Assembly: GCA_028700115.1 (NCBI GenBank)
Contig: JAQVTI010000008.1
Coordinates: forward strand, 1-32,000
DNA from: Candidatus Iainarchaeum sp.
GTDB lineage: Archaea; Iainarchaeota; Iainarchaeia; Iainarchaeales; CSSED10-239
DNA: 32,000 bases
Reading direction: 5' to 3'
How positions within the stretch are numbered: position 1 is the stretch's first letter; each line of letters begins with the position of its first letter. Under the pieces are notes generated by a model, which saw nothing but the letters and a program-made list of their open reading frames with translations, was not told the origin of the DNA and did no database searches. Made by a program: the position numbers and the translations under genes. Shown here piece by piece: positions 1 through 27,374 of this stretch.

Positions 1-710
1 GTTCTCATAGCTTGAAATCCTCTCCAAGGAATATATATCTTATATGTTCTTCTATCTAAAACAGGCTTTTGAATAACTTCATTATTTTTAAGTCTTTTAA
101 CTGTAACTTTAGGAAGCTTTTCAAAGTTTTCATCAGATAAATTTTCTCCTGTCAAAGTTATATAAAATGAACCAGTACATTCATCTGAATCTATTTCACA
201 ATTTACAACATCTAATTTTTCTCCTGCATCTAAAAACATCTGAGCTACAATTTTATTAAATTCAGATTCATTTTGAACAGTATTTACAAAAACTCTATAA
301 CCTATAGGGGATTTTGTAAATTCTAATTTATTTAAAATAGATTCAGAAAAATAACCAGTTACATTTCTTCCAAAAAATACACTATACCCCATAGAATTTA
401 CAAACTCATCCCAGGGCATATAAATTTCTTTTCTTGTAAGAGTAGTATAATTATCAGAACTAGATTTTACTTCTTCCCATTTTGTTCTAAAACCTAAAAC
501 AAATAAATTAAATGCATCTGCTTTTGATAAATCTGCAATTGTAGAAAGATCTGAATTAGAAGATTTTGATTCTATTAAATTCAAATTAGTTTCTTCAGTT
601 GCAACCATATTAAAAACTAAAACCAGACTCATAGATATAAGCATTAAAGAAACTAAAGCTGTAAAAAGATTAAATCCTTTTTCTGATTTTATAAAAATAT
701 TATATTTCAT
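1..710 (-). CDS. Type IV pilin-like protein with a class III signal peptide; partial, C-terminus lies beyond the window edge
   Basis: Absent from the ORF track because it runs off the window. My minus-strand translation from the ATG at 710..708 stays open to position 1: MKYNIFIKSEKGFNLFTALVSLMLISMSLVLVFNMVATEETNLNLIESKSSNSDLSTIADLSKADAFNLFVLGFRTKWEEV... A short basic N-terminus ends in K-G and is followed directly by a ~22-aa hydrophobic helix. That is the prepilin/archaellin-type signal pattern. It is co-directional with, and 183 bp downstream of, the giant ORF. Confidence 0.5.
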   Translation of the reverse strand, partial: MKYNIFIKSEKGFNLFTALVSLMLISMSLVLVFNMVATEETNLNLIESKSSNSDLSTIADLSKADAFNLFVLGFRTKWEEVKSSSDNYTTLTRKEIYMPWDEFVNSMGYSVFFGRNVTGYFSESILNKLEFTKSPIGYRVFVNTVQNESEFNKIVAQMFLDAGEKLDVVNCEIDSDECTGSFYITLTGENLSDENFEKLPKVTVKRLKNNEVIQKPVLDRRTYKIYIPWRGFQAMR

Positions 711-893: not shown

Positions 894-3800
894 TTAATTT
901 GAATTTAATCCAAAGTTTACAATTGAACAATTATCAAGTCTACTATCAGAAGTTATATTTGTATCAACTGTAGGACTAATAGTTAAAATATATCTACCAT
1001 GTGAATCATCTAAATTATTTTCTTCTAGAACAATTTGGTATAAAATATTTTTAGAAAAATCTACAGGTTCAATAATTGAAATTGAATTATTTAATAATAC
1101 AGCACCATTAGTTCTAACATTTTTAGAACCTACTATATTCCCTATAATCCCACATCCAATACCTCTTAAAAGACCTGCACCCATAGATGTTAATCTTGAT
1201 CCTCTTCTAACTGCATGATTTGTAGTATTATTTACATTTGAAATAAGTCTACTATAATCATTTGCAACATCATCTGCATAAGTATATACTCTTGTAGCTC
1301 CAGTTCCTGTAGGGGTACCTCTTTGAACAATATGTTCTAAATCTGTTAAATCTTTATTTAAATTATTTAATACATCTTTTGACTTTTTAAAATCATCTAA
1401 TGTCTTTTTTTCAACATTACTTAAATGCCTTCTATGTTCTAATTTTTTAATTTCATTTTCAACAGTATCTAAATTATTTTTCAAAATAGTCTTTTCAGTT
1501 GAAATATTATTTAATAAATCATCATATTCTGATTGGGTTAATTGCTTTACAGAAGAATTTATAGAAGACCCAGCTGAACTAGCACCAGCTGAAGCTGTTA
1601 AAATGTTTACTCTATTTTCTAATTTTAAAAATAACCCATTTCTAGAATTAAATATAGATTTATAAACTTCATCTGGACCTTTTAAAGAACCAGTTACATT
1701 AACTCCTCTAAAATTATTATTTCCACCAGTTACAATTCCCACTATTTTTTTAAACTCATCTAAATCTGCAGAAGTATTAATTTTAGTATAATCAAAACTT
1801 ACAGTTAAAGTTCCTGAATTTTTTAAAATTGAAGAATTTCTAATAATATTTAAAATTTCAGCATCACTATATATAGTTGAATTAATATATTTTATTTTAG
1901 AACCATTTGCAAATGAACTTATATACATTTTATTATTATGTAAATTATCAAATGTTGCTCTTAAATATTCATCTAAACTATGTGTGGTTTGTGTACAACG
2001 TATATTTGGAACTACTGGATTTACTGGATTTACTGGATTTGGGACAACAACTGTTGGAAGATCATCTAATAAAGATATGGTTTGAGAACTTGTTCCAATA
2101 GGTCTTGTTCTATTTAATCTAATTCCTGCAAAAACTCCAGAAATTACAGACATACTTTCGTCAAAAAAACCAGAAATATTCTCTGCAACTCTAAAAGAAT
2201 CTCCAACAGGCAAAATATCCATAATAAATTTATCAATTGCAACATCAAGTCCTTCAGAAGTATACCCATTTAATAAAATCCCAATTGAAGGAATTCCACA
2301 AGAAAATATTCCACAATCTATTAAAATATCTTTTAAAAATTTAACTTGCCCCGCAATTGGAATTAATAATAATATACCATCTACTGCAGCAGTACATGCA
2401 GAACAAGAAGCCATACATCCAACAAAATATTTTTCTGCATTATCTGTATATTTTTGTATTCTTGCTTTTTCTTGACTACTTGTAATATCTATATCACAAT
2501 CTAAAGATGCATATTCATAAAACCCAATGGCATCTGGATTATTTATATTATATTTTCTAATAACTTCACAAATATTTTCTGAATCTAGATTTGAATATGA
2601 ATTTTGCCAATCTACTAAAGCATATAATTCTAATAAATTAATCTCTTTATTTTGATTATCATAATTTTCAATTAACTCAGAAGTTTTTTCTAAAACATCT
2701 AAAGGAGTAATTCCACAACTAGATAAATGAATAATTGCTTCTGTTTTTCTTAAAGATAATTCTCCTGTTGCTTTATAAATACTATTTGCAGTAACTATAA
2801 TATCTTTTTCTACAAAAGCATTTATATTAGAATTTAATGGTACAAAACATATTTGTGTTTTAGAATAATTTTTATCAACAATATCTAATATGACATTTTC
2901 TAAAATATTATTATTATTATCTTTAAAATAAACATCTAAATTATTAGGACCTTTTACAGAAAGACTTACTCTTTCATCAATTCCAGAAGTTATTTCTAAA
3001 TCTTGACATCTTTCAAAATTATTTATTGGGATAGTAAATTCATCTTTTTTAAATTTTAATTCTCCAGCTTCTATTAATTCTAAAACTAATAAAGATTTTC
3101 TATCTTCTGTAATACATAATTTTGCAAAATCTTCTTTTGCTAAAATTCTACTAATTATTTTTACAGAATCTGAAACAACTTTTTCAGGAAGCTTATTATT
3201 TGTAAAATTTTCATATTTATTATTTATAATTAAATTAATTTGTTCGCCTTTTATTAAATTTTGAGAATAATCATAAAAACTGATTTTTGCAAGAGCTTCT
3301 TTATTTTCTGTAATTTTATCAATTGATGATTTTAAAATATTGTTTTTTAAATTTGTTTGTGAATTAAAAATAAATCTATTATCTGTATCTTTAAAATAAT
3401 TTAAAGAATCTATAACGCCTTTAGAAATTTCTTCTTCTCCAGTAAAAAGAGTAAGCCATGTTCCATAATTATATTTATTTGTAAGATCTAAATCCCATGG
3501 TATAAAATTTAAAAAATTAGAAATATTTTTAACACATTGATCTGTTTGTTTATATTCTATTAAATTTACATAAAAATAAACTCTATCTGGAAATATATGT
3601 TCATTATTTGCAGCAACAAATCCATCAACTTCAATAGTATATCTTCCACATCCTTTTATTCCATTTGTAAAAAATATTCTATTCCCAGAATTATAAAGTC
3701 CATAAACTTCTTTTGGAGTTGAGGTATATGGATTTACATCAACCATATATTTATTAAATTTATAATTTGTATTTTTTAATTCATTATATAATAAATCATC

Positions 3801-6800
3801 AGAAACATAATCATTTTGCATATAAAAAGTAAACTCAATAGGTTCAAGTGTAGATCCTAAATCAGAAATTGAACAAAACCCTTTAGCAGCATCAATAGTT
3901 GAACAACTTGTATTTGATAAAATATTTTGAGAATGTGCTGAAACTTGTAATATTTCTGAATATAATTCATTTATTTTTTCTAAAATTAATTTAGATACTG
4001 CAGAAGCATCACAATATCCATTTGTTGAACAATTTTTAGAAGATGAAATTATTGGGAATGTAATTAATTCTATTTTATTTGGATCTTGACATACAGAAAT
4101 TTCTATTTCTTTTGTTTGTTCTATATCTTTTAAATTATCTTGATCCTCTGAATAAATATTAATTGATGTAAGAATACTTTCTGAAGAAACATACCCTCCA
4201 GATGTTGTTTGTCCAACAATTGTAACTGGCATTGATGGATTTAATTTAAAATCATTAGCATATAAATCTAATGCAAATTGAGACATTCCATTTAATGGAA
4301 TTGTTTGATAACCTGAAGTAGGATATATACTAATTAAATTATTCCCAAAAGTCTCAAAATAACCAGCCCTACTTTTATCAATTCCAATAATTGTAACAGG
4401 CTCTGCACAATTATTTGTAATGGTTATATTTTTAGATCTTCTTTCTCCAATATTTAAATTATAAGAAAGCTTTTGAGGGGATATTTTTAAACAATTTGGA
4501 GATGAAATTAAAAATACAACTTTAATATAAGATACAATAGGGTCTCTTACTCCTGCAGCAGTTCCTTTTATAACAAAATACATATCATCAAAAGTAGATT
4601 TATTCATACTTACTTGAAATTTTAAATCAATTGGAACCATTTTTCCAGGTTCTAAAATTTCAATTTCTCTAGGATATTCTGTAACTGCCATATTCGATGA
4701 AACCCTTTCAGGATATTTACTAAGTTGTATATTTGATATAGGTATATTCCCTATATTTTTTATCCAAAATCTAACAGTAGTTATTGCTTGTTGTTGGGTT
4801 ATTACTTGTGTCATAGGGACAGTTACTATTTGTGGGGTTACCCATAAAGAATTACTTAAATCTAATAATTCTACATTTAATTTTGTAGGAGATAAAGAAT
4901 AATAATCATTATTCCATAAAATATTATAATTATATGTCTTTTTTTGAGTTCTATCTGAATTATTTTCAATAATTATATTATATAAAATTTCTTCTCCAGA
5001 AAGCACTGTAACATCTGTTAAAACAATATCAAGTTCATTATTAGAATTTGTTTTTTCTAAAATAAGTTCAGGATTAATTGTAACAGCTTTTTCACAGGAG
5101 TTATAAATTGTAAATCCAACTGTATTTTGAGAAGATCCTTTTGTATTTTTAAAAAGGCTTGAATAATATTTATTAAATCCATCTGAATAATAATTTATAT
5201 TATTATTAGTTTGATAAACATCTCCATAATAAGAACTTGTTTGACCTCCTAAAGAAGAATTATAAGAACTTTCATAATTATTATTATAAAAATCTGTATA
5301 ATCTGTAGAAAAATATTCATTTTGAGAATAATCATTATTTATTCCAACATAAGTATTTATTTCTTCTGGTTTAATTACTAAACAATCATCTATAACCAAA
5401 CCTTTTATTATTCTAACAGGTATTAACTTTGCAACTTGCCTATTTCCTATAAGCCCATATATAGGTATTTTTGCAATTGCAGAAGTAAATTGTGAATCTT
5501 TTGAAGCAGTTGCAATAATTTCAAAATTGGTATTTGTATTTTTTAAAATAGTCACTGGTCCTCTAATATCTAAACTTAAAGAATCTGCTTGCTCTATCCA
5601 TATTGGTTCTCCAAAACTTATATCTGTTACAATTGTATCAGATAAATTTTCAATAAAGAAAGACTTTATTTCACTTGATTGAGAATTCCCTAAATTTATC
5701 AAAATTTCCTTAGGGGTATTTAAAACCCCATCATCTGCGATAAGTATTTCTCTAGTATAAGGCTTATAACCATATGCAGAAACTGTAACATTTATTTTAT
5801 TTACTACGAAATCAACCTTTACTTTATAAACCCCTTTTTTTCCATTAAGATTATTTCCTTGAAATGAAGATATTAATTGATTATATTCATCTTCTATTTT
5901 AATAAATGCATTTTCTATAAAATTTCCATTTGTAGAATCAAATACTTCTATTTTTATATCAGAACCATATGAAACAATATAATCTGGGGTAAATAAAACA
6001 TTCATATTTCTTTTTTGGAAAATATCAAAATTTATTCTTTCGTTAATACCTTCTAAAGAATCAGAATAAATTAAAGTATCAATATAAGATATCCCAATAT
6101 TTTTTGCAATAAAAAATACATAAACTTTTTTTCTAATACCTGCATCTAATGATATTGTAGGTTGTGTAATATTATATTGAGAAATTGTTTCAAGATTAAT
6201 ATTTGTTGGATAAGAAAAATTATTTCCAGTTGAAATAAATGAAATTATAGGTTTTGTATTTGATGTAGAAACATCAAAATTAATAGTTGTATTTTTAAAA
6301 CTAAAAAATGTTGCCTCAAGAGCATATATTTCATCTTTTAATGCTATAAAATTATCTTTATCAAAATCAATTCCATCTTCAGAAATAAATTTATAAGATA
6401 CACAAACTTCATCTTTACAATTTAAAGGAATATCAAAAACATCTATTTCTATATTTTTAGATTCAGCATATAAAAATTGTTTAGAAGAATTTGATTTTTT
6501 ATCTAAAAGAACAGAATCAATTGGATCTCTATAATAAGAATTATCTATTTTATCCCAAACTCTATATTCAAAAATTGCTTTTAATTTAGAAGTATTTACA
6601 ACATTTACTTTTATTTTAATTTGCTTTGTTCCAATATCTTGAGATTGTTTCCAATAAAGTTCAACCCATTTATTTATTTGCCCAGCTTTTCCTTCATTTA
6701 AAAAATCAACATCTTGATTTCCAGGTTCTGGTAAATAATTGTATGTTGTAGAATATCTAAAATCTGTAGAATCAGATAAAAATCCAGAAATACCATAACT

Positions 6801-8810
6801 CATATTTTCAGAATCAATTTCAAGATCATCTCCAGCTCTAATATGTACCCCACCTTCTTTTACATTTTTTGGGAAAAAAACATCAAAAATAAGATAATAA
6901 TCTTTTCCTTCTGATAAAAAATTTACAGTTTTTCCAAAAGAATCTTTTATTTCTACAAATTCTATTATTGGATAATTCCCTTCAAGATCATTTTCTGGAT
7001 TTGTAATTGTAATACTTACAAACCCATCTTCATCTAAATTTTCTAAAGAAAAAGGAATTGTTGTAATATTCCCATTTTCATCATAATAATCTGCAAAAAA
7101 TTCAGAATATCCTATATTATTAAAAAATATACGACCTTGATTTAAATCATCATCAAAAAGAACAGTATTATCTTTTGTTCTAATTGTTAAATGACCATCA
7201 TCTATTAAACTACCATCTTTATTTAAAATTTCTAAATCTACTAAAATATCTGCTTTATCTATTACAAATATAATTTTATTTTCTAAATAATCACTTATTG
7301 TAATATATTCAGAAATAGTTAAATCACCTACAAACACTTCAACTGCAAATTGTGAAAAGTTTTCTAAAGGAATAGATAAACTACCAGTTAAATCTACAGA
7401 ATAAATTTCTGAATATGGGAGTATTAATTCATCTTGAATTTTATAAATTCTTATTTTTGCAGAACTTACAGGTAAATTTTTACTATCTACAACAAATATA
7501 TTTAATAAAGAACTATTGTCTATTTTAATTTTTTCTAAAAAAATATCCTCTTGATTTTTTTCTTTTAATGAAATTTTTTTAACAGAACATAAATATGAAT
7601 CTTTACATGCAGAAACAATAATATTTGAATCATTTTCTAAACCTGAAAATATAATTTTTCCAGAAAAATCAGTAATATTTGTATCTATAACATTATTATT
7701 TAAATCATAAATTGTAACTTTTGAATCTTCTAAAGGAATATATTGATCTAAATCTAATATATTTAAAGAAATTGAAGAACCCCCAACTTCTAAAATTATT
7801 GGAATAATTTTTTCTAATTCTAATATTCTATAAGAAGTTTGATTATCACTAAAATTAGTTCTATATCCTTCTTTTGAAACACTAAAATTTATTGTTTCTC
7901 CAGAATTAACTTTTATCAAAGCCTTCCCATCAATTGTTTTTGTAGTATCAATTAAATTTCCTTCAAGATTATATACATCAACAATTGCATCATTAATTAA
8001 ATTCCCAGAAATATCATTTACTATAAAAATAACATCTGACTTCCCAGAAAAAGAAATATCTGAACTAATTACTAAATTTATTTCTTTTGTTTCAGAAGGA
8101 TTTATAAGTTTAAAATTTCTAATTACAAAATCTTCATAATTATCTGCTTTTATTAAAATATCTGATGTTTTATTTAATGGAACATCTAAAATTATATTAT
8201 AATTATCTTTTTCTAAAGAATTAAAATTTTGATTAAAATCTTGACCATTTAATTTATATGAAATTGTTGCAATTGAATTAGGAATTATTTTTTTATTATC
8301 AGAATCATATATTATTAATTTTAAAGAACCATATTCTATAATTTCATCAAAAGATATAATAATTTTATCATTTTTAGAAATTATTGTAAATTCTTTACTA
8401 AAAGATACATATCCTTCTTTTTCTGCTTTTAAGGAATAAACTTTTCCAATTTTTAATTTTTTATTTGTAATCACATCTTTATTATTTATATTCCCAGAAA
8501 AAATATTGTCTTTATCAACAGAATTAATTTTTAAATAAACATCATTTATTTCAAAATTACTATAATCATAAATATTAAATTCCAAAGATACTTTTGGAGA
8601 AAAGATACCAATTAATAAAAAAATTAAAATTAAAATAATTATTAAAAAGATACCTCCAAAAACAGCAACTGGAGGAATTCCCTTATCTTCTAACTTTTCA
8701 TTAATAGAATTTAAATTAATTCCTTTTTTTGTAATCCAATCTGAAAATTTATAATAAATATTTTCAACATAGTTAAATAATTTTGAAAAAAAATTTTGTT
8801 TCTCACTCAT
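894..8810 (-). CDS. Giant (2,638 aa) membrane-anchored surface/adhesin-like protein with repeated beta-sandwich domains
   Basis: An uninterrupted 7.9-kb ORF in a genome where random ORFs are short. The N-terminus has ~47 polar residues and then a TM helix (VAVFGGIFLIIILILIFLLIGIF). At least 7 segments of ~85-95 aa follow the CarboxypepD_reg/PEGA-like pattern, for example VIFIVNDISGNLINDAIVDVYNLEGNLIDTTKTIDGKALIKVNSGETINFSVSKEGYRT and KINVTVSAYGYKPYTREILI. Later segments look CARDB-like (VRFWIKNIGNIPISNIQL, SKNITITNNCAEPVTIIG). No catalytic motif was recognised. Confidence 0.85.
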   Translation of the reverse strand: MSEKQNFFSKLFNYVENIYYKFSDWITKKGINLNSINEKLEDKGIPPVAVFGGIFLIIILILIFLLIGIFSPKVSLEFNIYDYSNFEINDVYLKINSVDKDNIFSGNINNKDVITNKKLKIGKVYSLKAEKEGYVSFSKEFTIISKNDKIIISFDEIIEYGSLKLIIYDSDNKKIIPNSIATISYKLNGQDFNQNFNSLEKDNYNIILDVPLNKTSDILIKADNYEDFVIRNFKLINPSETKEINLVISSDISFSGKSDVIFIVNDISGNLINDAIVDVYNLEGNLIDTTKTIDGKALIKVNSGETINFSVSKEGYRTNFSDNQTSYRILELEKIIPIILEVGGSSISLNILDLDQYIPLEDSKVTIYDLNNNVIDTNITDFSGKIIFSGLENDSNIIVSACKDSYLCSVKKISLKEKNQEDIFLEKIKIDNSSLLNIFVVDSKNLPVSSAKIRIYKIQDELILPYSEIYSVDLTGSLSIPLENFSQFAVEVFVGDLTISEYITISDYLENKIIFVIDKADILVDLEILNKDGSLIDDGHLTIRTKDNTVLFDDDLNQGRIFFNNIGYSEFFADYYDENGNITTIPFSLENLDEDGFVSITITNPENDLEGNYPIIEFVEIKDSFGKTVNFLSEGKDYYLIFDVFFPKNVKEGGVHIRAGDDLEIDSENMSYGISGFLSDSTDFRYSTTYNYLPEPGNQDVDFLNEGKAGQINKWVELYWKQSQDIGTKQIKIKVNVVNTSKLKAIFEYRVWDKIDNSYYRDPIDSVLLDKKSNSSKQFLYAESKNIEIDVFDIPLNCKDEVCVSYKFISEDGIDFDKDNFIALKDEIYALEATFFSFKNTTINFDVSTSNTKPIISFISTGNNFSYPTNINLETISQYNITQPTISLDAGIRKKVYVFFIAKNIGISYIDTLIYSDSLEGINERINFDIFQKRNMNVLFTPDYIVSYGSDIKIEVFDSTNGNFIENAFIKIEDEYNQLISSFQGNNLNGKKGVYKVKVDFVVNKINVTVSAYGYKPYTREILIADDGVLNTPKEILINLGNSQSSEIKSFFIENLSDTIVTDISFGEPIWIEQADSLSLDIRGPVTILKNTNTNFEIIATASKDSQFTSAIAKIPIYGLIGNRQVAKLIPVRIIKGLVIDDCLVIKPEEINTYVGINNDYSQNEYFSTDYTDFYNNNYESSYNSSLGGQTSSYYGDVYQTNNNINYYSDGFNKYYSSLFKNTKGSSQNTVGFTIYNSCEKAVTINPELILEKTNSNNELDIVLTDVTVLSGEEILYNIIIENNSDRTQKKTYNYNILWNNDYYSLSPTKLNVELLDLSNSLWVTPQIVTVPMTQVITQQQAITTVRFWIKNIGNIPISNIQLSKYPERVSSNMAVTEYPREIEILEPGKMVPIDLKFQVSMNKSTFDDMYFVIKGTAAGVRDPIVSYIKVVFLISSPNCLKISPQKLSYNLNIGERRSKNITITNNCAEPVTIIGIDKSRAGYFETFGNNLISIYPTSGYQTIPLNGMSQFALDLYANDFKLNPSMPVTIVGQTTSGGYVSSESILTSINIYSEDQDNLKDIEQTKEIEISVCQDPNKIELITFPIISSSKNCSTNGYCDASAVSKLILEKINELYSEILQVSAHSQNILSNTSCSTIDAAKGFCSISDLGSTLEPIEFTFYMQNDYVSDDLLYNELKNTNYKFNKYMVDVNPYTSTPKEVYGLYNSGNRIFFTNGIKGCGRYTIEVDGFVAANNEHIFPDRVYFYVNLIEYKQTDQCVKNISNFLNFIPWDLDLTNKYNYGTWLTLFTGEEEISKGVIDSLNYFKDTDNRFIFNSQTNLKNNILKSSIDKITENKEALAKISFYDYSQNLIKGEQINLIINNKYENFTNNKLPEKVVSDSVKIISRILAKEDFAKLCITEDRKSLLVLELIEAGELKFKKDEFTIPINNFERCQDLEITSGIDERVSLSVKGPNNLDVYFKDNNNNILENVILDIVDKNYSKTQICFVPLNSNINAFVEKDIIVTANSIYKATGELSLRKTEAIIHLSSCGITPLDVLEKTSELIENYDNQNKEINLLELYALVDWQNSYSNLDSENICEVIRKYNINNPDAIGFYEYASLDCDIDITSSQEKARIQKYTDNAEKYFVGCMASCSACTAAVDGILLLIPIAGQVKFLKDILIDCGIFSCGIPSIGILLNGYTSEGLDVAIDKFIMDILPVGDSFRVAENISGFFDESMSVISGVFAGIRLNRTRPIGTSSQTISLLDDLPTVVVPNPVNPVNPVVPNIRCTQTTHSLDEYLRATFDNLHNNKMYISSFANGSKIKYINSTIYSDAEILNIIRNSSILKNSGTLTVSFDYTKINTSADLDEFKKIVGIVTGGNNNFRGVNVTGSLKGPDEVYKSIFNSRNGLFLKLENRVNILTASAGASSAGSSINSSVKQLTQSEYDDLLNNISTEKTILKNNLDTVENEIKKLEHRRHLSNVEKKTLDDFKKSKDVLNNLNKDLTDLEHIVQRGTPTGTGATRVYTYADDVANDYSRLISNVNNTTNHAVRRGSRLTSMGAGLLRGIGCGIIGNIVGSKNVRTNGAVLLNNSISIIEPVDFSKNILYQIVLEENNLDDSHGRYILTISPTVDTNITSDSRLDNCSIVNFGLNSN
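2014..2040. repeat. Perfect 3x tandem 9-nt repeat (actggattt) inside the giant ORF, encoding a PVNPVNPV linker
   Basis: Read directly: actggattt actggattt actggattt at 2014..2040. On the minus strand this encodes ...VPNPVNPVNPVVPN... It also creates the spurious plus-strand ORF 1907..2101 (LLDLLDLLDL). Confidence 0.95.
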
Positions 8811-9172: not shown

Positions 9173-9517
9173 ATGAATATGATTAAACTTCAAAAAATTG
9201 GAGCTTATGCATTTCTACTTGGTATTTTAATTTCAATAATTTTTGGATTAATTAGTTCTCTTACAAATGCTTCATGGGTTCAAATTGTTCTAATTGTTTT
9301 AGGATTAGTTGTTGGATTATTAAATATTGAAGATAGAAACATAAGTTTATTTTTAATTGCAACAATTGCTTTTATTGCAACTTCAACATCTCTAAACTCT
9401 CTTCCAATAATAGGAAGTATCTTTAGAAATGTTTTAGTTAACATGATACATTTTATAGCACCAGCTGCATTAATTGTTTCAATCGTAGCAATAATTAGAG
9501 TTGCAAACAACAAATAG
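9173..9517 (+). CDS. Small integral membrane protein (3-4 TM helices), function unknown
   Basis: The ORF has a strong SD (aAGGAGGaa at 9163..9171) just upstream. ATG codons at 9173 and 9179 are both possible, and 9179 gives the better SD spacing. The protein is hydrophobic throughout (AYAFLLGILISIIFGLI, IVLIVLGLVVGLL, LFLIATIAFIA, FIAPAALIVSIVAII). Confidence 0.6.
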   Translation: MNMIKLQKIGAYAFLLGILISIIFGLISSLTNASWVQIVLIVLGLVVGLLNIEDRNISLFLIATIAFIATSTSLNSLPIIGSIFRNVLVNMIHFIAPAALIVSIVAIIRVANNK

Positions 9518-9535: not shown

Positions 9536-9835
9536 CTATTTTTCTTTTTCTTTTTTAAAATTAATATTAATTAATTGATTAACAGAATAAATCTTTGTTG
9601 CATTTTTAATTTTAACAACAGGTATATTAATTTCTCTTAAAAATATAAAAATATGAGATAAAAAAGATCCTTTTTCTACAATAATACCATTTACTTTTGA
9701 TAAATAAGGTAAGATATTTAAATTTAATTCTTCAATAACTAAAACTTTATTATTTAAATTTACTTTATCTAAATCTTCTAAATTATTAAATAAAACACAT
9801 TTTCCAAAAATATTTCCTTTTACTAAAAATTCCAT
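9536..9835 (-). CDS. Stand-alone PEP-utilizing-enzyme mobile (swivel phosphohistidine) domain protein
   Basis: GIIVEKGSFLSHIFIFLREINIPVV matches the PEP-utilizers motif G-G-x-T/S-H-x-x-I-x-A-R-E-x-G-IP-x-V. Compare [20 protein letters not shown] in the ppsA of this same window. The candidate His is retained. I moved the start from the track's TTG (9844) to the ATG at 9835, which lies only 9 nt after the TAG of the upstream ORF. Confidence 0.6.
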   Translation of the reverse strand: MEFLVKGNIFGKCVLFNNLEDLDKVNLNNKVLVIEELNLNILPYLSKVNGIIVEKGSFLSHIFIFLREINIPVVKIKNATKIYSVNQLININFKKEKEK

Positions 9836-9844
9836 AATTATCAA

Positions 9845-10372
9845 CTACAAATATTTTATTTTTAAAAAATTAAACGTACTATTCACCATACGTTCAATAG
9901 AACCTTTATCAACTTGTTTAAAATCATAATTAGTAAAATCTTTCTTATTATCAATAATTTTAATATTTAAATCTTCTTTTAACCCTAAATTTTTCAAAAT
10001 ATTTATAATAGCATATTTAATTTTATCATTATTTGAATTAAATTTTTTTAATTCATTTATTTTAGGAAGAATACCTAAATATAAATATTCAGAAAATATT
10101 CCAGAATCTAAAAGGTGCCCTGTTATAAAAAATTTTGGAGATTCAATTATTTTTAAACAAATAATAAAAGAATAATCTTCAAATAAATATTCTTTATAAA
10201 AATAATTATTCTTTACAAAAAAATTAGAACATAATCCTCTAAAGATAGGCGATTCAATATTTAAATTAAATTCAGCGAATAATTTAAATTTTTTATAATC
10301 TTGTAAATTCATTTTTTTAAATTTAGATAAATTATATTTTTTATCATAATTTAATTCAAAATTATATTCCAA
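9845..10372 (-). CDS. Hypothetical protein with no ATG start (TTG in the track); possible remnant or frameshifted gene coupled to the swivel-domain ORF
   Basis: This is a 175-codon ORF. The frame is open for another 27 codons upstream (YRPLDTPKNIYNLVLDTLIKKRKDPT) with no ATG or GTG. A second frame further upstream (10441..10539) reads ...KCFFGIYSTNCDDWSGDDIDL* and also lacks a start. No family was recognised. Confidence 0.35.
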   Translation of the reverse strand: MEYNFELNYDKKYNLSKFKKMNLQDYKKFKLFAEFNLNIESPIFRGLCSNFFVKNNYFYKEYLFEDYSFIICLKIIESPKFFITGHLLDSGIFSEYLYLGILPKINELKKFNSNNDKIKYAIINILKNLGLKEDLNIKIIDNKKDFTNYDFKQVDKGSIERMVNSTFNFLKIKYL

Positions 10373-14915: not shown

Positions 14916-15144
14916 TAAATCACCTTTTTCTTAAATTTTATAAAAATTATTCTTATTAAAATTATTTTTAATAAAATTATTAATTTTATTTTTTTAAAAT
15001 AATTTTGTTAATAAATTTATTTATATTATAAAATATAATAAATATAATTATATATATTATAAAAATATTTATAAAGGTTTCACACATAATATTTCTTAAT
15101 AATTTTTAAAAAATTACATTAAATAAATTAAATGTGAAATAAAA

Positions 15145-15849
15145 ATGGATGAATTAAATAAAATAAAAATTAAAAATGGAAGAATTGTTACTTCAGATAG
15201 TAATAAAAAATTTAAAAAATTAAATATGATTTTAATAATATCTATAGTTATAATAATAATATTAATTACAGCTATATATATTATAAAAGTAAATAAAATT
15301 GATGTAGATACACTTTGTGGAAATGGAACTTGTGATATACAAGCAGGAGAAAACAACATAAATTGCCCTTCTGATTGTAAAATAGATACTACAAATAATA
15401 ACACAAATAACAATCCACAAGATACAACAAACACAAATGATCAAAACTTAGAACAAACAACTTGTGGAAATGGAACTTGTGATAATAAAGAAACTCCTAT
15501 GAATTGTCCAGAAGATTGTATTGTCCCAACAAAACCTACTTGTGGGGATGGAATCTGTAATGGAGAAGAAAATTGTGCTTCTTGTGAAACTGATTGTGGA
15601 GCTTGCCAAGAAGAAGAACAAACAACTTGTGGAGACGGAATTTGTAACGGAGAAGAAAATTGTTCAACTTGTGAAACTGATTGTGGAGCTTGCCAAGAAA
15701 AAGAACAAACAACTTGTGGAGACGGAATCTGTAACGGAGAAGAAACATGTTCATCTTGTGAAACAGATTGTGGAGCTTGTGGAAATTTAGCTCCTAAAAT
15801 TGGAAACACTTGTGGAATTTGTTTAGAAGCATCAACTTCTATACTTTAA
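15145..15849 (+). CDS. Signal-anchored secreted protein built from Cys-rich CGxGxC...C..DC modules
   Basis: An N-terminal TM anchor (MILIISIVIIIILITAIYII) is followed by 2 modules of type CGNGTCD..GEN..NCPxDC. Three modules of type TCGDGICNGEENCxxCETDCGAC follow, separated by E/Q/T linkers. Confidence 0.75.
   Translation: MDELNKIKIKNGRIVTSDSNKKFKKLNMILIISIVIIIILITAIYIIKVNKIDVDTLCGNGTCDIQAGENNINCPSDCKIDTTNNNTNNNPQDTTNTNDQNLEQTTCGNGTCDNKETPMNCPEDCIVPTKPTCGDGICNGEENCASCETDCGACQEEEQTTCGDGICNGEENCSTCETDCGACQEKEQTTCGDGICNGEETCSSCETDCGACGNLAPKIGNTCGICLEASTSIL
15538..15783. repeat. Tandem 87-bp (29-codon) repeat, ~2.8 near-identical copies
   Basis: Unit starts (acttgtgg...) lie at 15538, 15625 and 15712, an exact 87-nt period. 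The copies differ at only a few positions. Each encodes TCGDGICNGEE(N/T)C(A/S)(S/T)CETDCGACQE(E/K)EQT. Confidence 0.9.
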
Positions 15850-24848: not shown

Positions 24849-24857
24849 GTGATAAAA

Positions 24858-27374
24858 ATGAGTTTAGATTTTTCAAAAAATATAATTGTTGGAAGAAAAG
24901 AAAGTCATATTGAAAAATATGGAGAAAAAGCAACAGGGTATATTGGAAAAGTTGTAGTTTCTGGGGGAGAAGATCCTGTTTTAGGAAAAAAAATATTAAT
25001 GGATTTATCTAGATCACACGTAGCAATTATATGTGGAAAACGTGGTGGAGGGAAATGCCTTCATGAAGATACATTAATAACTTTAGATGATGGAAGAGAA
25101 ATAAAAATTAAAGAATTAGAAAAAAATAAAAATAAAGTTCTTTCAATAAATAAAAATTTAAATATAATTTCTAATAAAAAAGATGAATTTTTTAAAAGAA
25201 ATGTAAAAAGTATGCTTAATGTAAAATTAAGAAGTGGAAAAGAACTAAAATTAACAAAAGAACATCCTTTATTTACAATTAATGGATGGGAACCTATTAA
25301 TAAATTAAAGAAAGGATCTAGAATAGCAACACCTAGAATAATTAATAATTTTGGAAATAAAAAAATTACTTTAGAAGAAATAAAACTAATTGCATATTTA
25401 TTATCAGAAGGTAATTTATCTAATAATTTAGTATTATTTAATAATACTGATAAAAAAATAATAGATGATTTTAAAAAAAGTATAAAAAAATTTGATAAAA
25501 ATTTACTTATAAAAAAACATAGTGACTTTGATTTCAGAGTAATTAAATCAAAAAAAAGTAAAGAAAAAAGTAGTATTAGAAAATATTTAGATAAAATTAA
25601 AATTTACGGAAAATTAGCTCATGAAAAAGAAATTCCTTCACAAATATTTCAATTATCTAAAAAAGATTTAAGCTTATTTCTAAATAGAATGTTTAGTTGT
25701 AATGGATGCATATGCTATGATATAAATAAGAAAGCATGGAGTATAAATTATTCTACATCATCTAAAAAAATGTCATTTCAAATACAAAGTTTACTTTTAA
25801 AATTTGGAATATTATCAAAAATTAGAACTAAAAAAATAAAAAAAAGACTTAATTATGAAATAGTCATATTAAAACAAGATAATTATAAATATATTAAAGA
25901 AATTAATTTTTTTGGAAATAAAAAAGAAAAATCAAAAAATATAAAAATTAAAAAAAATAATAACCTAAATATAGATACAATTCCTAAAGAATTATGGAAT
26001 ACATATAAGATTAAAAACTTTACAAAAATAGGAAAACAATTTGGATATAAAGTACCTAAATCTTTTAGAACTTGTGTAAATTATTCTCCTTCAAGACAAG
26101 AACTTAACAAAATTGCAGATATTGAAAAAAATAAAAATTTAAAAAATTTAGCAAATTCAGATATATTCTGGGATGAAATAATAAATATTAAAGAAATTAA
26201 AGGAAATTTTACTGTTTATGATATAACTGTTCCAGAAACACATAATTTTATTGCAAATAATATTATAGTACACAATAGCTACACTATGTCTGTAATTATG
26301 GAAGAATTTGCAAAACAACCATTTGAAATAAAAGAAAGACTTTCTGCAATTATAATAGATACTGTTGGAATTTTTTGGACTATGAAATATGAAAATAAAG
26401 AACTCCCACAAGACTTATTAGATAAATGGGATTTAAAAGCAAAAGGAATTGAAATTAGAAATATGATTCCTTTTGGGAAAAAAAATTTTTATGAAAAAAA
26501 AGAAATACCTTTTGACCAACCTTTTTCAATTAAGACATCTCAAGTAGACTTAGAAGATTGGCTTGCTTTATTTAGGCTTACTTGGAAAGACCAAGAAAGT
26601 TCTCTTCTATCAAGATCAATTGAAGAGATTAGAAAAAAAGTAGGAAACTTATATGATATTGATGACATTATAACAATTTCTCAGAAAGATACAGAAACTA
26701 CAAAAGAAACAAAAGATTCTTTAATTGGTAGATTAAAAGTTGCAAAATCATGGGGGCTATTCTCAAAACAAGGAACAAGTATGAAAGATTTTGCAAGAGC
26801 AGGAACAATTACAACAATTGATGTTTCTACCTATAAACAAGCAATTGGAATGGAATCAATCCAAGAATTAATAGTTGGTCTTTTAGGAAAAAGATTATAT
26901 GAAGAAAGAATGCTTTATAGAAAAGAAGAAGAAAAAAATTTACTAATAGGTAAAAAAAAAGAAAGTGAAATGCCAATTGTTTGGATGATGATTGATGAAG
27001 CACATATGTTTATGCCTCAAGACAGACCAAGTATGGCACTAGATGTATTATTACAATGGATTAGAGTTGGAAGACAACCTGGACTTTCTTTACTTCTTGC
27101 AACCCAAAGACCAAACAAATTACACTCTGAAGCAATATCTCAATGTGATTTCTTTTTAAGTATGAGAATGACTGCTCAAGAAGATATACAAGCAGTTTCT
27201 GCAATTAGACCAAGTTATTTAAAAATTCCAATGGATAAATATTACGCACAAATGCCAAAAACACAAGGTTTTGCAATCTTAGTAGATGATAATTCTGAAA
27301 AAGTTATGATGCTTAAAATAAGACCTAGAATAACATGGGATGGAGGAAAAACTGCTAATGTTTTTTCTGATTAG
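24858..27374 (+). CDS. HerA/FtsK-superfamily (DUF87-like) P-loop ATPase precursor containing an intein
   Basis: The extein sequence reads ...HVAIICGKRGGGK|intein|SYTMSVIMEEF, so splicing restores the Walker A motif GKRGGGKS. Walker B is IVWMMIDEAHMF. A HerA-like sensor region reads LLLATQRPNKLHSEAISQCDFFLSMRMTAQEDIQAV. The mature protein would be ~431 aa. The track start GTG (24849) is a GTGAT SD, so I use the ATG at 24858. Confidence 0.8.
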   Translation: MSLDFSKNIIVGRKESHIEKYGEKATGYIGKVVVSGGEDPVLGKKILMDLSRSHVAIICGKRGGGKCLHEDTLITLDDGREIKIKELEKNKNKVLSINKNLNIISNKKDEFFKRNVKSMLNVKLRSGKELKLTKEHPLFTINGWEPINKLKKGSRIATPRIINNFGNKKITLEEIKLIAYLLSEGNLSNNLVLFNNTDKKIIDDFKKSIKKFDKNLLIKKHSDFDFRVIKSKKSKEKSSIRKYLDKIKIYGKLAHEKEIPSQIFQLSKKDLSLFLNRMFSCNGCICYDINKKAWSINYSTSSKKMSFQIQSLLLKFGILSKIRTKKIKKRLNYEIVILKQDNYKYIKEINFFGNKKEKSKNIKIKKNNNLNIDTIPKELWNTYKIKNFTKIGKQFGYKVPKSFRTCVNYSPSRQELNKIADIEKNKNLKNLANSDIFWDEIINIKEIKGNFTVYDITVPETHNFIANNIIVHNSYTMSVIMEEFAKQPFEIKERLSAIIIDTVGIFWTMKYENKELPQDLLDKWDLKAKGIEIRNMIPFGKKNFYEKKEIPFDQPFSIKTSQVDLEDWLALFRLTWKDQESSLLSRSIEEIRKKVGNLYDIDDIITISQKDTETTKETKDSLIGRLKVAKSWGLFSKQGTSMKDFARAGTITTIDVSTYKQAIGMESIQELIVGLLGKRLYEERMLYRKEEEKNLLIGKKKESEMPIVWMMIDEAHMFMPQDRPSMALDVLLQWIRVGRQPGLSLLLATQRPNKLHSEAISQCDFFLSMRMTAQEDIQAVSAIRPSYLKIPMDKYYAQMPKTQGFAILVDDNSEKVMMLKIRPRITWDGGKTANVFSD
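25056..26276 (+). mobile_element. 407-aa intein with a LAGLIDADG homing-endonuclease domain, inserted in the Walker A loop
   Basis: The Cys1 codon TGC is at 25056 (block A CLHEDTLITLDDG). Block B is LTKEHPL (TxxH). LAGLIDADG motif 1 is LIAYLLSEGN and motif 2 is LSLFLNRMFSCNGC. Block F is VYDITVPETHNFIANN and block G is IIVHN, ending at 26276. The +1 extein residue is Ser (AGC at 26277). The length is in frame: 1221 nt. Confidence 0.85.

What the first reader, a model, noticed from the sequence alone, without database searches (positions are those of the whole stretch)
894..8810. 2,638-aa giant membrane-anchored envelope protein: top candidate for an undescribed cell-surface/contact system
One ORF takes up a quarter of the window in what looks like a small, streamlined archaeal genome. 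The predicted architecture starts with a short cytoplasmic N-terminus and a single TM anchor. An extracellular stalk follows, with at least 7 CarboxypepD_reg/PEGA-like beta-sandwiches and then CARDB-like modules. Next comes ~550 aa of Cys-containing sequence I cannot place, then a distinct C-terminal module (separate finding). I see no catalytic motif and none of the C-terminal anchor types familiar from archaeal surface proteins. An N-terminally anchored, very long, repeat-built protein fits a spacer or adhesin used to reach another cell, such as a host of an episymbiotic archaeon. That functional reading is inference.
Basis: partly seen in the sequence, partly recalled or inferred. Interest (0 to 1): 0.78.

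Follow-up and report, generated by a model that had tools for sequence, protein, structure and literature searches.

The report
Giant surface protein of Iainarchaeota archaea
This is a real 2,638-residue surface protein, anchored in the membrane by its first segment, and it belongs to an unstudied family found across one phylum of tiny archaea; many relatives carry enzymes at their far end that cut bacterial cell walls, which suggests these archaea reach out to and attack or feed on bacteria.

Summary
The ORF (894-8810, minus strand, 2,638 aa) is real. The organism is a low-GC DPANN archaeon ("Candidatus ainarchaeum sp.", Iainarchaeota/Diapherotrites).

- one strong N-terminal TM segment
- seven mutually homologous CarboxypepD_reg-like beta-sandwiches
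- four sandwiches of a second class
- a Cys-rich module with no Pfam, PDB or viral fold match
- a helical C-terminal module

New findings:
- About 145 cluster representatives form a fixed-length family, with named members and genome hits almost all Iainarchaeota.
- A 46-aa N-terminal leader with two [KR]G[ILV]P motifs is highly conserved and shared with two paralogous giants.
- The gene order giant-1, ~550-aa prepilin-like protein (…KG|FTLFTAL…), giant-2, giant-3 recurs in every locus that extends far enough.
- In relatives, an unclassified archaeosortase-like gene and a type IV filament ATPase and platform lie upstream.
- At least 11 of 147 relatives end in peptidoglycan hydrolases or a lipase. 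This protein does not.
- Eighteen near-invariant cysteines place residues 798-2166 outside the cell.

Best reading: it is the scaffold of a phylum-specific surface apparatus aimed at bacterial envelopes. Function is inferred, not shown. I rate it a new variant of the "giant DPANN contact protein" kind, interest about 0.68.

The parts
894..8810 (-). Giant-1 ORF, 2,638 aa plus stop
8673..8810 (-). Conserved 46-aa cytoplasmic leader (aa 1-46) with two [KR]G[ILV]P motifs (K29-G30-I31-N32, where the family has P, and K43-G44-I45-P46)
   Evidence: Alignment of 85 members: Y, E, D, L, [KR]G.P ... E.[KR]GIP.FP nearly invariant. The same leader occurs in the paralogous giants 2 and 3. No Pfam or NCBIfam hit.
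8601..8672 (-). The only strong transmembrane or pilin-like hydrophobic helix (aa 47-70)
   Evidence: Kyte-Doolittle 19-residue mean 3.4; positive-inside bias
6993..8594 (-). Six tandem CarboxypepD_reg-like beta-sandwiches D1-D6 (aa 73-606)
   Evidence: hhalign all-vs-all probability 70-99 among themselves and 90-98 to D8; weak bMG3 hit at 341-403
5997..6980 (-). Unique, most conserved insert D7 (aa 611-938) with motifs HIRxGxD, NKWxE, YRxW and an invariant C798/C803 pair
   Evidence: Highest conservation in the family alignment; no similarity to the other domains; no PDB sequence hit or Pfam hit
5718..5993 (-). Seventh CarboxypepD_reg-like sandwich D8 (aa 940-1031)
   Evidence: Pfam PF13620 28.9 bits here (below the 32.3 cutoff); the best-scoring stretch of P0005's 66.2-bit hit lies at the corresponding position (aa 921-999)
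5385..5714 (-). First sandwich of the second class, D9 (aa 1033-1142)
   Evidence: hhalign probability 90-97 to D10/D11
5136..5330 (-). N/Y-rich low-complexity linker (aa 1161-1225), specific to this sub-lineage
   Evidence: Column occupancy 0.13-0.33 across 85 members
4143..5126 (-). Three further second-class sandwiches D10-D12 (aa 1229-1556)
   Evidence: hhalign; weak DUF7507 and choice-of-anchor-D hits; conserved Cys 1239, 1440, 1468
3126..4133 (-). Cys-rich alpha/beta 'head' (aa 1560-1895) with family signatures C..GYCDA, GCGxY and NFLPxD
   Evidence: AF2 pLDDT about 85-97 with the 44-sequence alignment; near-invariant Cys 1574, 1594, 1600, 1636, 1646, 1721, 1759; no fold match in PDB or BFVD
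2718..3125 (-). Embedded Ig-like sandwich (aa 1896-2031)
   Evidence: The only fold matches of the C-terminal model are MSP/PapD-like Ig domains; I assign them to the model's one beta-sandwich stretch (model residues about 342-477), because the Foldseek table gives no query coordinates. Strand pattern in the model
2262..2480 (-). A/G/S-rich helical hairpin (aa 2111-2183) with invariant C2132 and C2166 and motifs YF..C and DCG.PA
   Evidence: Moderate hydrophobicity only (1.7-2.0); two long helices in the AF2 model; both Cys 100% conserved. Read as extracellular, not TM.
1548..2177 (-). Poorly conserved, probably disordered segment (aa 2212-2421)
   Evidence: pLDDT below 50; weak conservation
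1107..1535 (-). Coiled-coil hairpin (aa 2426-2496) and glycine-zipper-like helix (aa 2541-2565, consensus G.CG...N.AG)
   Evidence: AF2 helices with pLDDT 66-88 over this stretch; coiled-coil-type weak hits only; C2553 and C2628 conserved to a similar degree
972..1085 (-). Small terminal beta-domain (aa 2576-2613). In many relatives a hydrolase cassette follows; here the protein ends at 2638.
1..710 (-). Downstream partner gene, cut by the window edge (236 aa visible), starting MKYNIFIKSEKG|FNLFTALVSLMLI (prepilin-like)
   Evidence: Homologous to the 470-560-aa gene directly after giant-1 in the five homolog loci compared (E 1e-20 to 1e-73). The same N-terminal motif appears after giant-1 in 20 of 29 species-representative loci.
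9173..9517 (+). 114-aa multi-hydrophobic membrane protein upstream; possibly associated, membership uncertain
   Evidence: 69% identical homolog about 2.9 kb upstream of giant-1 in L001; no family hit

Best explanation
The gene encodes 'giant-1', the first of three paralogous giant proteins that, together with a ~550-aa prepilin-like protein, form a gene cluster specific to Iainarchaeota. The protein is held at the cell by its single N-terminal hydrophobic helix, and everything after residue 70 lies outside the cell. A stalk of fixed length is built from 11 Ig-like sandwiches and one unique conserved 330-aa domain. If extended it would be tens of nanometres long. The stalk carries a disulfide-rich head, a helical bundle and a small terminal beta-domain. 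In many relatives that far end is extended by peptidoglycan hydrolases (lytic transglycosylase, NlpC/P60, amidases, glucosaminidase) or a GDSL lipase. I infer that the apparatus brings its tip to the envelope of bacteria, for attachment, local wall breaching or feeding. The copy in this window has the scaffold but no enzyme of its own. Assembly probably involves the type IV filament machinery and the archaeosortase-like enzyme found next to the cluster in relatives. Shown here: gene reality, family, architecture, extracytoplasmic location, gene neighbourhood, and enzyme cassettes in relatives. Inferred: contact with bacteria, co-assembly of the four proteins, and the role of the leader.
For: The ORF is real and homologs are colinear. 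The family has 145 representatives at 50% identity, nearly all 2.4-3.0 kaa, with the C-module starting near aa 1500. The N-terminal 1,560 aa align gaplessly. Named members are all Iainarchaeota. All 58 species-representative genome hits are archaeal; those with a phylum label are Iainarchaeota (including Ca. Iainarchaeum andersonii and the complete AR10 genome) except one labelled Micrarchaeota, and many are labelled only 'archaeon'. Domain classes were established by hhalign. Eighteen near-invariant Cys lie between aa 798 and 2166, and there are 40 N-glycosylation sequons. The cluster order giant-1, pilin-like, giant-2 is seen in L001, L002, L004, L006, L007, L008, L009 and L011, with giant-3 following wherever the locus extends far enough. 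Pilin-like partner homology. The leader is shared by the three giants. T2SSE/T2SSF lie upstream in L002, L007 and L011. The archaeosortase-like gene is upstream in about 12 loci. C-terminal cassettes pass Pfam cutoffs: SLT, NlpC/P60, Amidase_2, Amidase_3, Glucosaminidase, GDSL, DUF2272. Published precedent for large PG-hydrolase proteins in other DPANN: PMC8204110, PMC9723730.
Against: This protein and its closest relatives (P0002-4) have no hydrolase tail, and the window holds no T4P or archaeosortase gene. Only 11 of 147 representatives have recognisable hydrolase tails. Iainarchaeota have been argued to be free-living (cited in PMC10936187, PMC6642349). Phylum-wide presence and fixed length would also suit a structural envelope protein. 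No pilin family model hits the partner gene. The C-terminal head has no structural analogue that would indicate binding specificity. No expression or localisation data exist.
Confidence: 0.55

Rival explanations
1. Giant class-III-signal (pilin-like) protein. The [KR]G|IP.FP motif just before the hydrophobic helix is cut by a prepilin peptidase, and the giants are mounted on or in a type IV filament (tip or base complex) built by the neighbouring ATPase and platform, together with the 550-aa pilin-like protein. This reading is compatible with the best explanation and refines its assembly step.
For: [KR]-G immediately precedes about 24 hydrophobic residues in 84 of 85 members, and F at +4 is shared with the partner's KG|FTLFTAL motif. 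T2SSE/T2SSF and several small pilin-like genes adjoin the cluster in L002, L007 and L011. There is precedent for large non-pilin proteins with class III signals (the Sulfolobus bindosome; modular pilins), which I cite from my own knowledge.
Against: The leader is 43-46 aa long and strongly conserved, unlike known prepilin leaders. Pro at +2 is atypical. No pilin model matches. No T4P genes are in this window. Cleavage is untested.
Confidence: 0.3
2. Structural cell-envelope component. The three giants form the S-layer-like wall or sheath of Iainarchaeota and are processed by the adjacent archaeosortase-like enzyme, as ArtA processes the Haloferax S-layer glycoprotein.
For: Phylum-wide conservation and strictly fixed length; an archaeosortase-family gene directly upstream in about half of the evaluable loci; many glycosylation sequons.
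Against: There is no C-terminal tripartite sorting signal, since the only strong TM is N-terminal. No S-layer family hit appears at E<=1. Variable PG-hydrolase and lipase cassettes at the tip are hard to explain for a wall lattice. The stalk would be much longer than a usual pseudoperiplasm (my own knowledge).
Confidence: 0.15
3. Tethered exo-enzyme scaffold for scavenging. The protein only holds hydrolases away from the cell to digest free peptidoglycan or necromass, with no cell-cell contact; in this lineage it is an enzyme-less remnant.
For: Hydrolase cassettes in relatives; fermentative, scavenging lifestyles have been proposed for DPANN (PMC10936187, PMC9723730).
Against: A 2,400-aa conserved scaffold, three paralogs, a pilin-like partner and secretion or assembly genes are far more than tethering needs. 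The scaffold is retained and conserved where no enzyme is attached (P0001-4).
Confidence: 0.15
4. Assembly artefact or non-coding ORF.
For: None found. The genome is AT-rich, and MAG contigs can be chimeric.
Against: P(no stop) is about 1e-107. The ORF is identical in a second assembly. There are 145 homolog clusters with the same architecture.
Confidence: 0.01

Closest known systems
[quoted passage not shown] 2021, PMC8204110; 'large lytic murein transglycosylase', Vigneron et al. 2022, PMC9723730)
   Same: DPANN archaea; proteins up to about 3,000 aa; extracellular; a bacterial-type peptidoglycan hydrolase domain in an organism without peptidoglycan; proposed to bind or degrade bacterial walls.
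   Different: Those were reported for Pace- and Woesearchaeota, whereas this family was recovered almost only from Iainarchaeota. The protein in this window has no SLT domain. Homology between the two scaffolds could not be tested, because no fam00969 sequence was available. The leader, the three-giant cluster, and the pilin-like and archaeosortase-like partners are not mentioned in the passages of those papers that I read.
SPEARE proteins of Nanohaloarchaeota (Hamm et al. 2019, PMC6642349)
   Same: Giant (3-8.5 kaa), mostly extracytoplasmic, single-TM-anchored DPANN proteins proposed to mediate attachment to and entry into another cell.
   Different: SPEARE proteins have serine protease, laminin-G/adhesion, BC-toxin-like and cytoplasmic restriction-endonuclease domains and are usually anchored at the C-terminus. 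None of these domains is detected here.
Proteins with class III (prepilin-type) signals outside classical pilins: the Sulfolobus bindosome sugar-binding proteins and modular type IV pilins (own knowledge)
   Same: [KR]-G followed by a hydrophobic helix at the N-terminus of a large globular extracellular protein; dependence on a T2SSE/T2SSF-type machinery encoded nearby.
   Different: The leader here is 43-46 aa, conserved and internally duplicated. The protein is 5-10 times larger. Processing is untested.
Archaeosortase/exosortase sorting systems (ArtA with PGF-CTERM S-layer glycoprotein; own knowledge, and NCBIfam TIGR04178)
   Same: An exosortase/archaeosortase-family membrane protein is encoded directly beside a very large surface protein.
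   Different: No C-terminal motif-TM-basic signal is present in giant-1. The enzyme fits no named subfamily (all ArtA-H/Xrt models score below cutoff). It is absent from this window.
Giant Ig-repeat adhesins of bacteria (e.g. RTX adhesins) and the giant membrane proteins of the CPR predator Vampirococcus (PMC8080830)
   Same: A long string of Ig-like domains projecting a distal binding region; found in ultrasmall or host-dependent microbes.
   Different: Here the domain number and length are fixed across a phylum rather than varying in repeat count. Anchoring is N-terminal, and there is no T1SS signal or RTX repeats.

Membership tests
CarboxypepD_reg (Pfam PF13620) beta-sandwich | Score at or above Pfam gathering cutoff (32.3 bits) | tested here: not met
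   28.9 bits at aa 952-1027. In P0005 the whole-protein score is 66.2 bits (2 stretches), with the best stretch at the corresponding position, aa 921-999.
CarboxypepD_reg (Pfam PF13620) beta-sandwich | Homology of the seven proposed copies to one another and to the Pfam-positive copy | tested here: met
   hhalign on family sub-alignments: D1-D6 and D8 have pairwise probability 70-99, all but one pair (D5-D6, 70) at least 90.
CARDB (Pfam PF07705) | Any Pfam match to CARDB | tested here: not met
   No CARDB hit at E<=1. Only weak DUF7507 (17.4 vs 27) and choice-of-anchor D (11.5 vs 45) hits. D9-D12 are homologous to each other.
Type IV pilin / class III signal peptide protein | [KR]-[GA] cleavage motif directly followed by about 20 hydrophobic residues near the N-terminus | tested here: met
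   K43-G44 followed by IPPVAVFGGIFLIIILILIFLLIGIF; [KR]G conserved in 84 of 85 members.
Type IV pilin / class III signal peptide protein | Short, non-conserved leader (usually under 30 aa) and a match to a pilin N-terminal model | tested here: not met
   The leader is 43-46 aa and highly conserved. No pilin model hit in Pfam or NCBIfam.
Type IV pilin / class III signal peptide protein | Genomic association with T2SSE ATPase and T2SSF platform | tested here: inconclusive
   Present beside the cluster in L002, L007 and L011; absent from this window and from L001.
Type IV pilin / class III signal peptide protein | Cleavage by a prepilin peptidase | not testable with these tools
   Needs N-terminal proteomics or an in vitro assay.
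Archaeosortase/exosortase substrates (PGF-CTERM, PEP-CTERM and similar) | C-terminal tripartite signal: short motif, TM helix, basic tail at the extreme C-terminus | tested here: not met
   No strong C-terminal TM. The C-terminal hydrophobic helices are A/G-rich, carry conserved Cys and are followed by 75 or more residues of folded domain.
Archaeal S-layer protein families | Match to a known S-layer domain model | tested here: not met
   No such hit in Pfam or NCBIfam at E<=1.
SPEARE proteins | Serine protease, laminin-G/adhesion and type III restriction endonuclease domains | tested here: not met
   None detected; domain list taken from PMC6642349.
Large DPANN murein lytic transglycosylase proteins (fam00969) | SLT/GH23 domain in a protein of about 3,000 aa | tested here: not met
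   No SLT in this protein. SLT is present in the relatives P0006, P0022, P0023, P0063 and P0106 by Pfam, and in P0039 by phmmer similarity only.
Large DPANN murein lytic transglycosylase proteins (fam00969) | Sequence homology of the scaffold to fam00969 members | not testable with these tools
   No fam00969 sequence was available. Named members of this family are Iainarchaeota only.
Polymorphic effector architecture (conserved scaffold with variable C-terminal enzyme) | Conserved body with unrelated, interchangeable C-terminal catalytic domains across homologs | tested here: met
   Six enzyme families in different combinations follow the same terminal beta-domain.
Polymorphic effector architecture (conserved scaffold with variable C-terminal enzyme) | Cognate immunity gene next to the effector | not tested
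   The downstream gene is the conserved pilin-like protein, and no variable small gene was examined. Archaea lack peptidoglycan, so immunity may not be needed (inference).

The most novel reading that the evidence does not exclude
The three giants and the large pilin-like protein are clients of a dedicated type IV filament machinery. Their conserved 46-aa double-[KR]GIP leader is a previously unrecognised sorting or processing signal, and an unclassified archaeosortase-like enzyme matures them. Together they build a phylum-specific extracellular 'harpoon' whose tip breaches bacterial cell walls. This would mean that Iainarchaeota, often regarded as the free-living exception among DPANN, are epibionts or predators of bacteria.
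Probability: 0.2. Interest if true: 0.9.

Novelty: new variant of a known kind. Interest (0 to 1): 0.68.

Why it matters
How DPANN archaea recognise and exploit other cells is largely unknown at the molecular level, and for Iainarchaeota it is not even settled whether they have hosts. This work defines a concrete, phylum-wide candidate apparatus:
- a signature family (C..GYCDA, GCGxY, NFLPxD)
- a shared leader
- a fixed four-gene core
- recurrent partners (type IV filament genes and an unclassified archaeosortase-like enzyme)
- peptidoglycan-cutting tips that point to bacteria as the target

That turns a vague question about lifestyle into testable ones: which bacteria the head binds, whether the leader is cleaved, and what the fibres look like by cryo-ET. 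It also yields a confidently modelled ~480-residue stretch of the distal module (the Cys-rich head and a helical hairpin) with no structural relative in the PDB or BFVD, and a possible new protein-sorting signal.

Tried and rejected
- Extra TM segments near the C-terminus (aa 2130-2185 and 2541-2560). Rejected as membrane spans. They are only moderately hydrophobic and A/G/S-rich. They carry invariant or co-conserved Cys (C2132/C2166; C2553/C2628) and sit inside confidently modelled helices. A multi-span topology would also put hydrolase tails in the cytoplasm.
- A 'fusion-peptide-like' reading of G/A-rich segments (idea). Not pursued; nothing supports it.
- The search for homologous proteins with the C-module alignment returned nothing, not even the query's own family. 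With a consensus leader it found only four short fragments.
I replaced it with a degenerate DNA pattern.
- First AF2 run with six sequences was poor (pLDDT 50). The second run with 44 sequences was good for residues 1-650 and 868-1075.
- PDB sequence-profile searches for the C-module and D7 gave nothing meaningful. Pfam on D7 from 14 members found nothing consistent.
- tblastn of the C-module against 50,697 phage records gave no match.
- Remote homology between the C-terminal modules of giant-2 and giant-1 showed only two weak colinear hhalign hits (E 0.07 and 0.14). Left open.
- Pilin, prepilin or S-layer family models for the partner gene and the small neighbouring genes gave no hits.
- The Ca. 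I. andersonii tail (about 250 extra aa) has no Pfam hit.
Full report
**1. Observation**

The window has about 23% G+C. Its genes are archaeal housekeeping genes: NurA, HtpX-type M48 protease, PEP synthase, XPD helicase, ribosomal protein L44e, an intein-bearing gene, RpiA, and two tRNAs.

The ORF at 894-8810 on the minus strand starts with ATG and encodes 2,638 aa. With this composition the chance of 2,638 sense codons in a row is about 1e-107. The identical protein is on record from an NCBI MAG ("Candidatus ainarchaeum sp.", locus PHN22_02795, contig 37,460 bp) and from an independent Logan assembly. Three full-length homologs at 38-39% identity are colinear over 100% of the query. The gene is real and not chimeric.

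**2. Anatomy**

*Anchor.* The only strongly hydrophobic segment is aa 47-70 (Kyte-Doolittle 3.4). There are 7 K/R in the 46 residues before it and 1 in the 20 after it, which fits an N-in orientation.

*Stalk.* I aligned the first ~1,560 residues of 85 family members and compared domain-sized sub-alignments by hhalign.
- aa 73-606 (six units) and aa 940-1031 are mutually homologous; pairwise probability is 70-99, and all but one pair reach at least 90.
- aa 1033-1142 and 1229-1556 (four units) form a second class.
- aa 611-938 matches neither class.

The seventh unit is the one Pfam recognises as CarboxypepD_reg. It scores 28.9 bits here, below the 32.3 cutoff. In P0005 the family scores 66.2 bits overall, with the best stretch at the corresponding position. 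There is no CARDB hit. The second class gives only weak DUF7507 and choice-of-anchor-D scores.

The name CARDB is not.

The segment aa 611-938 is the best-conserved part of the N-terminal half (motifs HIRxGxD, NKWxE, YRxW and an invariant C798/C803 pair). It has no Pfam or PDB sequence relative. An N/Y-rich linker (aa 1161-1225) is an insertion specific to this sub-lineage.

*Distal module (aa 1555-2638).* With six sequences AlphaFold gave pLDDT 50. With 44 family sequences it gave pLDDT 76, about 90 for model residues 1-650 and about 85 for 868-1075. The model shows, in order:
- a Cys-rich alpha/beta head (aa ~1560-1895; signatures C..GYCDA followed by a long helix, a GCGxY beta-hairpin, NFLPxD)
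- an embedded Ig-like sandwich (~1896-2031)
- a long A/G/S-rich helical hairpin (2111-2183)
- about 210 disordered residues
- a coiled-coil hairpin (2426-2496)
- a glycine-zipper-like helix (2541-2565)
- a small beta-domain (2576-2613)

Foldseek against the PDB and against viral models matched only generic MSP/PapD-like Ig domains, which I assign to the embedded sandwich. PDB sequence profiles and phage tblastn found nothing.

*Location.* Eighteen cysteines between aa 798 and 2166 are at least 91% conserved in the family. They include C2132 and C2166 in the two "hydrophobic" helices. C2553 and C2628 are conserved to a similar degree. I therefore read all C-terminal hydrophobic stretches as parts of an extracellular, disulfide-stabilised fold. 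The protein would then be a single-span, N-anchored ectoprotein.

**3. The family**

A profile of the distal module, scored against 1.84 billion representative proteins, found 145 clusters, 117 of them with E<1e-30. Nearly all are 2.4-3.0 kaa long, and the module begins near residue 1,500. The N-terminal 1,560 residues align with almost no gaps. This is a fixed-length architecture, not a variable repeat adhesin.

Every member that carries a source name comes from Iainarchaeota/Diapherotrites. They are annotated only as hypothetical or "carboxypeptidase-like regulatory domain-containing protein". A degenerate DNA pattern for the YCDA signature hit 58 species-representative genomes, all archaeal. 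Those with a phylum label are Iainarchaeota, apart from one labelled Micrarchaeota; many are labelled only "archaeon". The hits include Ca. Iainarchaeum andersonii and the complete AR10 genome. There were no bacterial or chance hits.

**4. The leader**

The first 46 residues are among the most conserved in the protein. The consensus is M.ISEKL..IY.K.EDKYY..LDFLE.KG[ILV]P......DFLE.[KR]GIP[AS]FP, followed by the hydrophobic helix. It contains two [KR]G[ILV]P motifs 14 residues apart. The same leader opens the two other giant proteins of the cluster. It matches no Pfam or NCBIfam model.

[KR]-G directly before a hydrophobic helix is the hallmark of class III (prepilin) signals. F at +4 is shared with the partner gene's KG|FTLFTAL. 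However, the length and conservation of the leader and Pro at +2 are atypical. Cleavage is possible but unproven.

**5. Neighbourhood**

In every locus that extends far enough, giant-1 is followed by a 400-560-aa protein, then a second giant, and then a third wherever the locus reaches that far.

The truncated ORF at 1-710 of the window (MKYNIFIKSEKG|FNLFTALV…) is homologous to that 400-560-aa protein in the five homolog loci compared, L001, L002, L004, L006 and L007 (E 1e-20 to 1e-73). Among 29 species-representative loci where the stop of giant-1 is visible, 20 show an ORF with the …[KR][GA]F[TN][LM]F[TS]A… start directly downstream. No pilin model recognises it, so "pilin-like" rests on the N-terminal motif alone.

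Upstream in relatives lie:
- a FlaI/TadA-type ATPase, a T2SSF-type platform and several small proteins with class-III-like N-termini (L002, L007, L011)
- directly before giant-1 and co-directional, a 180-220-aa membrane protein that passes the NCBIfam exosortase/archaeosortase signature (35-45 bits, cutoff 23) but none of the named subfamilies

An HMM of that protein finds it at the expected position in about 10 of about 19 evaluable species loci, plus L002, L008 and L011. Neither gene is in this window. Here and in the close relative L001 the upstream neighbours include a conserved 114-aa membrane protein and PEP-utilizer-domain genes.

**6. The functional clue**

Many relatives continue beyond the terminal beta-domain. 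The tails that Pfam recognises all pass curated cutoffs:
- SLT: P0006, P0022, P0023, P0063, P0106
- NlpC/P60: P0011; P0019 (85 bits); P0031
- Amidase_2: P0063
- Amidase_3 plus glucosaminidase: P0031
- GDSL lipase: P0006, P0022
- DUF2272: P0106

A simple phmmer census finds such tails in 11 of 147 representatives. Other tails of 200-330 aa remain unassigned.

Archaea have no peptidoglycan (established knowledge). A conserved scaffold that repeatedly acquires different peptidoglycan-cutting enzymes at its distal tip is most simply explained if that tip meets bacterial walls.

The protein in this window and its closest relatives lack any such tail, so for this copy the inference is by homology of the scaffold only.

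**7. Mechanism proposed**

*Shown:* an N-anchored, extracellular, disulfide-rich, fixed-length giant with a conserved leader. It is one of three paralogs encoded with a prepilin-like protein. Relatives link the cluster to type IV filament and archaeosortase-like genes and add wall hydrolases to the tip.

*Inferred:* the four proteins form a fibre-like surface apparatus, assembled with help from the type IV machinery. The apparatus places a binding head, and in many lineages lytic enzymes, on bacterial envelopes for attachment, breaching or feeding. My confidence in this overall reading is about 0.55.

*Rivals:*
- A true pilin-like, peptidase-processed giant. This is compatible with the main reading and refines assembly (0.3).
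- An S-layer-like structural role with archaeosortase processing (0.15). It is disfavoured by the absence of a C-terminal sorting signal and by the enzyme tips.
- A mere tether for scavenging enzymes (0.15). It is disfavoured by the size, the paralogy and the conservation of enzyme-less copies.
- An artefact (0.01 or less).

**8. Comparison with the known**

[quoted passage not shown] I could not test whether this family is homologous to fam00969. The family here is essentially confined to Iainarchaeota, and this member lacks SLT.

SPEARE proteins of Nanohaloarchaeota (PMC6642349) and the giant membrane proteins of the CPR predator Vampirococcus (PMC8080830) are functional analogues with different domains. 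Class III signal proteins and archaeosortase systems are possible assembly analogues, but their defining features are only partly met (see the membership table).

**9. Novelty and score**

The gene family, its leader, the four-gene core and its partners do not appear in the passages of the papers I searched, and no model in Pfam or NCBIfam covers them. The general idea that DPANN archaea carry giant wall-degrading surface proteins does exist.

I class this as a new variant of a known kind, interest 0.68. The most novel reading that the evidence does not exclude is a new leader-dependent, type-IV-filament-assembled "harpoon" that would make Iainarchaeota bacterial epibionts or predators. I give it about 20% probability, and it would be of high interest if true.

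Noticed in passing
window 24849-27374 (+): An 841-aa ORF contains an intein (Intein_splicing 100 bits, with a LAGLIDADG homing endonuclease) at aa 77-476. Pfam does not identify the host (extein) protein.
   Followed up: no
window 9536-10372 (-); L001 1475-3340: Just upstream of giant-1 there is a free-standing 102-aa PEP-utilizers mobile domain next to an unassigned 175-aa ORF. In the relative L001 the corresponding gene is a 621-aa radical SAM/SPASM plus PEP-utilizers fusion. This may be a split or decayed gene, or a lineage-specific neighbour of the cluster.
   Followed up: partly
window 9173-9517 (+); L001 359-694: A 114-aa protein made almost entirely of hydrophobic helices has a 69% identical homolog upstream of giant-1 in L001, separated from it there by two intervening genes. 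It has no family assignment. It is unclear whether it belongs to the system.
   Followed up: partly
L002 9280-9930, L008 1896-2441, L011 9360-9896 and about 9 further loci (L025, L035, L041, L044, L048, L050, L057, L060, L069): A small (180-220 aa) exosortase/archaeosortase-family protein (TIGR04178 signature met, no named subfamily) sits directly upstream of giant-1 in about half of the relatives. Giant-1 has no recognisable C-terminal sorting signal, so its substrate is unexplained.
   Followed up: partly
P0103 (4,511 aa; Logan contig of 97 kb): One family member has a 2,263-aa extension, rich in Ala, Glu and Arg and probably coiled-coil, inserted before the terminal beta-domain region. This is a striking exception to the fixed length of the family.
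   Followed up: no
L010 9429-10964: In the sub-clade whose giant-1 carries SLT plus Amidase_2, the downstream 511-aa partner gene itself carries a GDSL lipase domain. Enzymes can therefore sit on either partner.
   Followed up: no
window 15114-15849, both strands: Several overlapping ORFs on both strands (234, 122, 106 and 89 aa) coincide with a local reversal of GC skew. No Rfam family was found there, and it is unresolved which reading frame, if any, is the gene.
   Followed up: partly
giant-2 proteins (L001 13567-20508 and orthologs): The C-terminal region of giant-2 gives two weak but colinear hhalign matches to the YCDA-helix and GCGxY-hairpin parts of the giant-1 head (E 0.07 and 0.14). 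This hints that all three giants may share a very divergent distal module.
   Followed up: partly
tool behaviour: The word-indexed homolog search returned nothing for a six-sequence alignment that included proteins it had itself returned earlier, and it found only 27 candidates for the consensus leader. Negative results from that tool for this AT-rich, low-complexity family should not be read as absence.
   Followed up: yes
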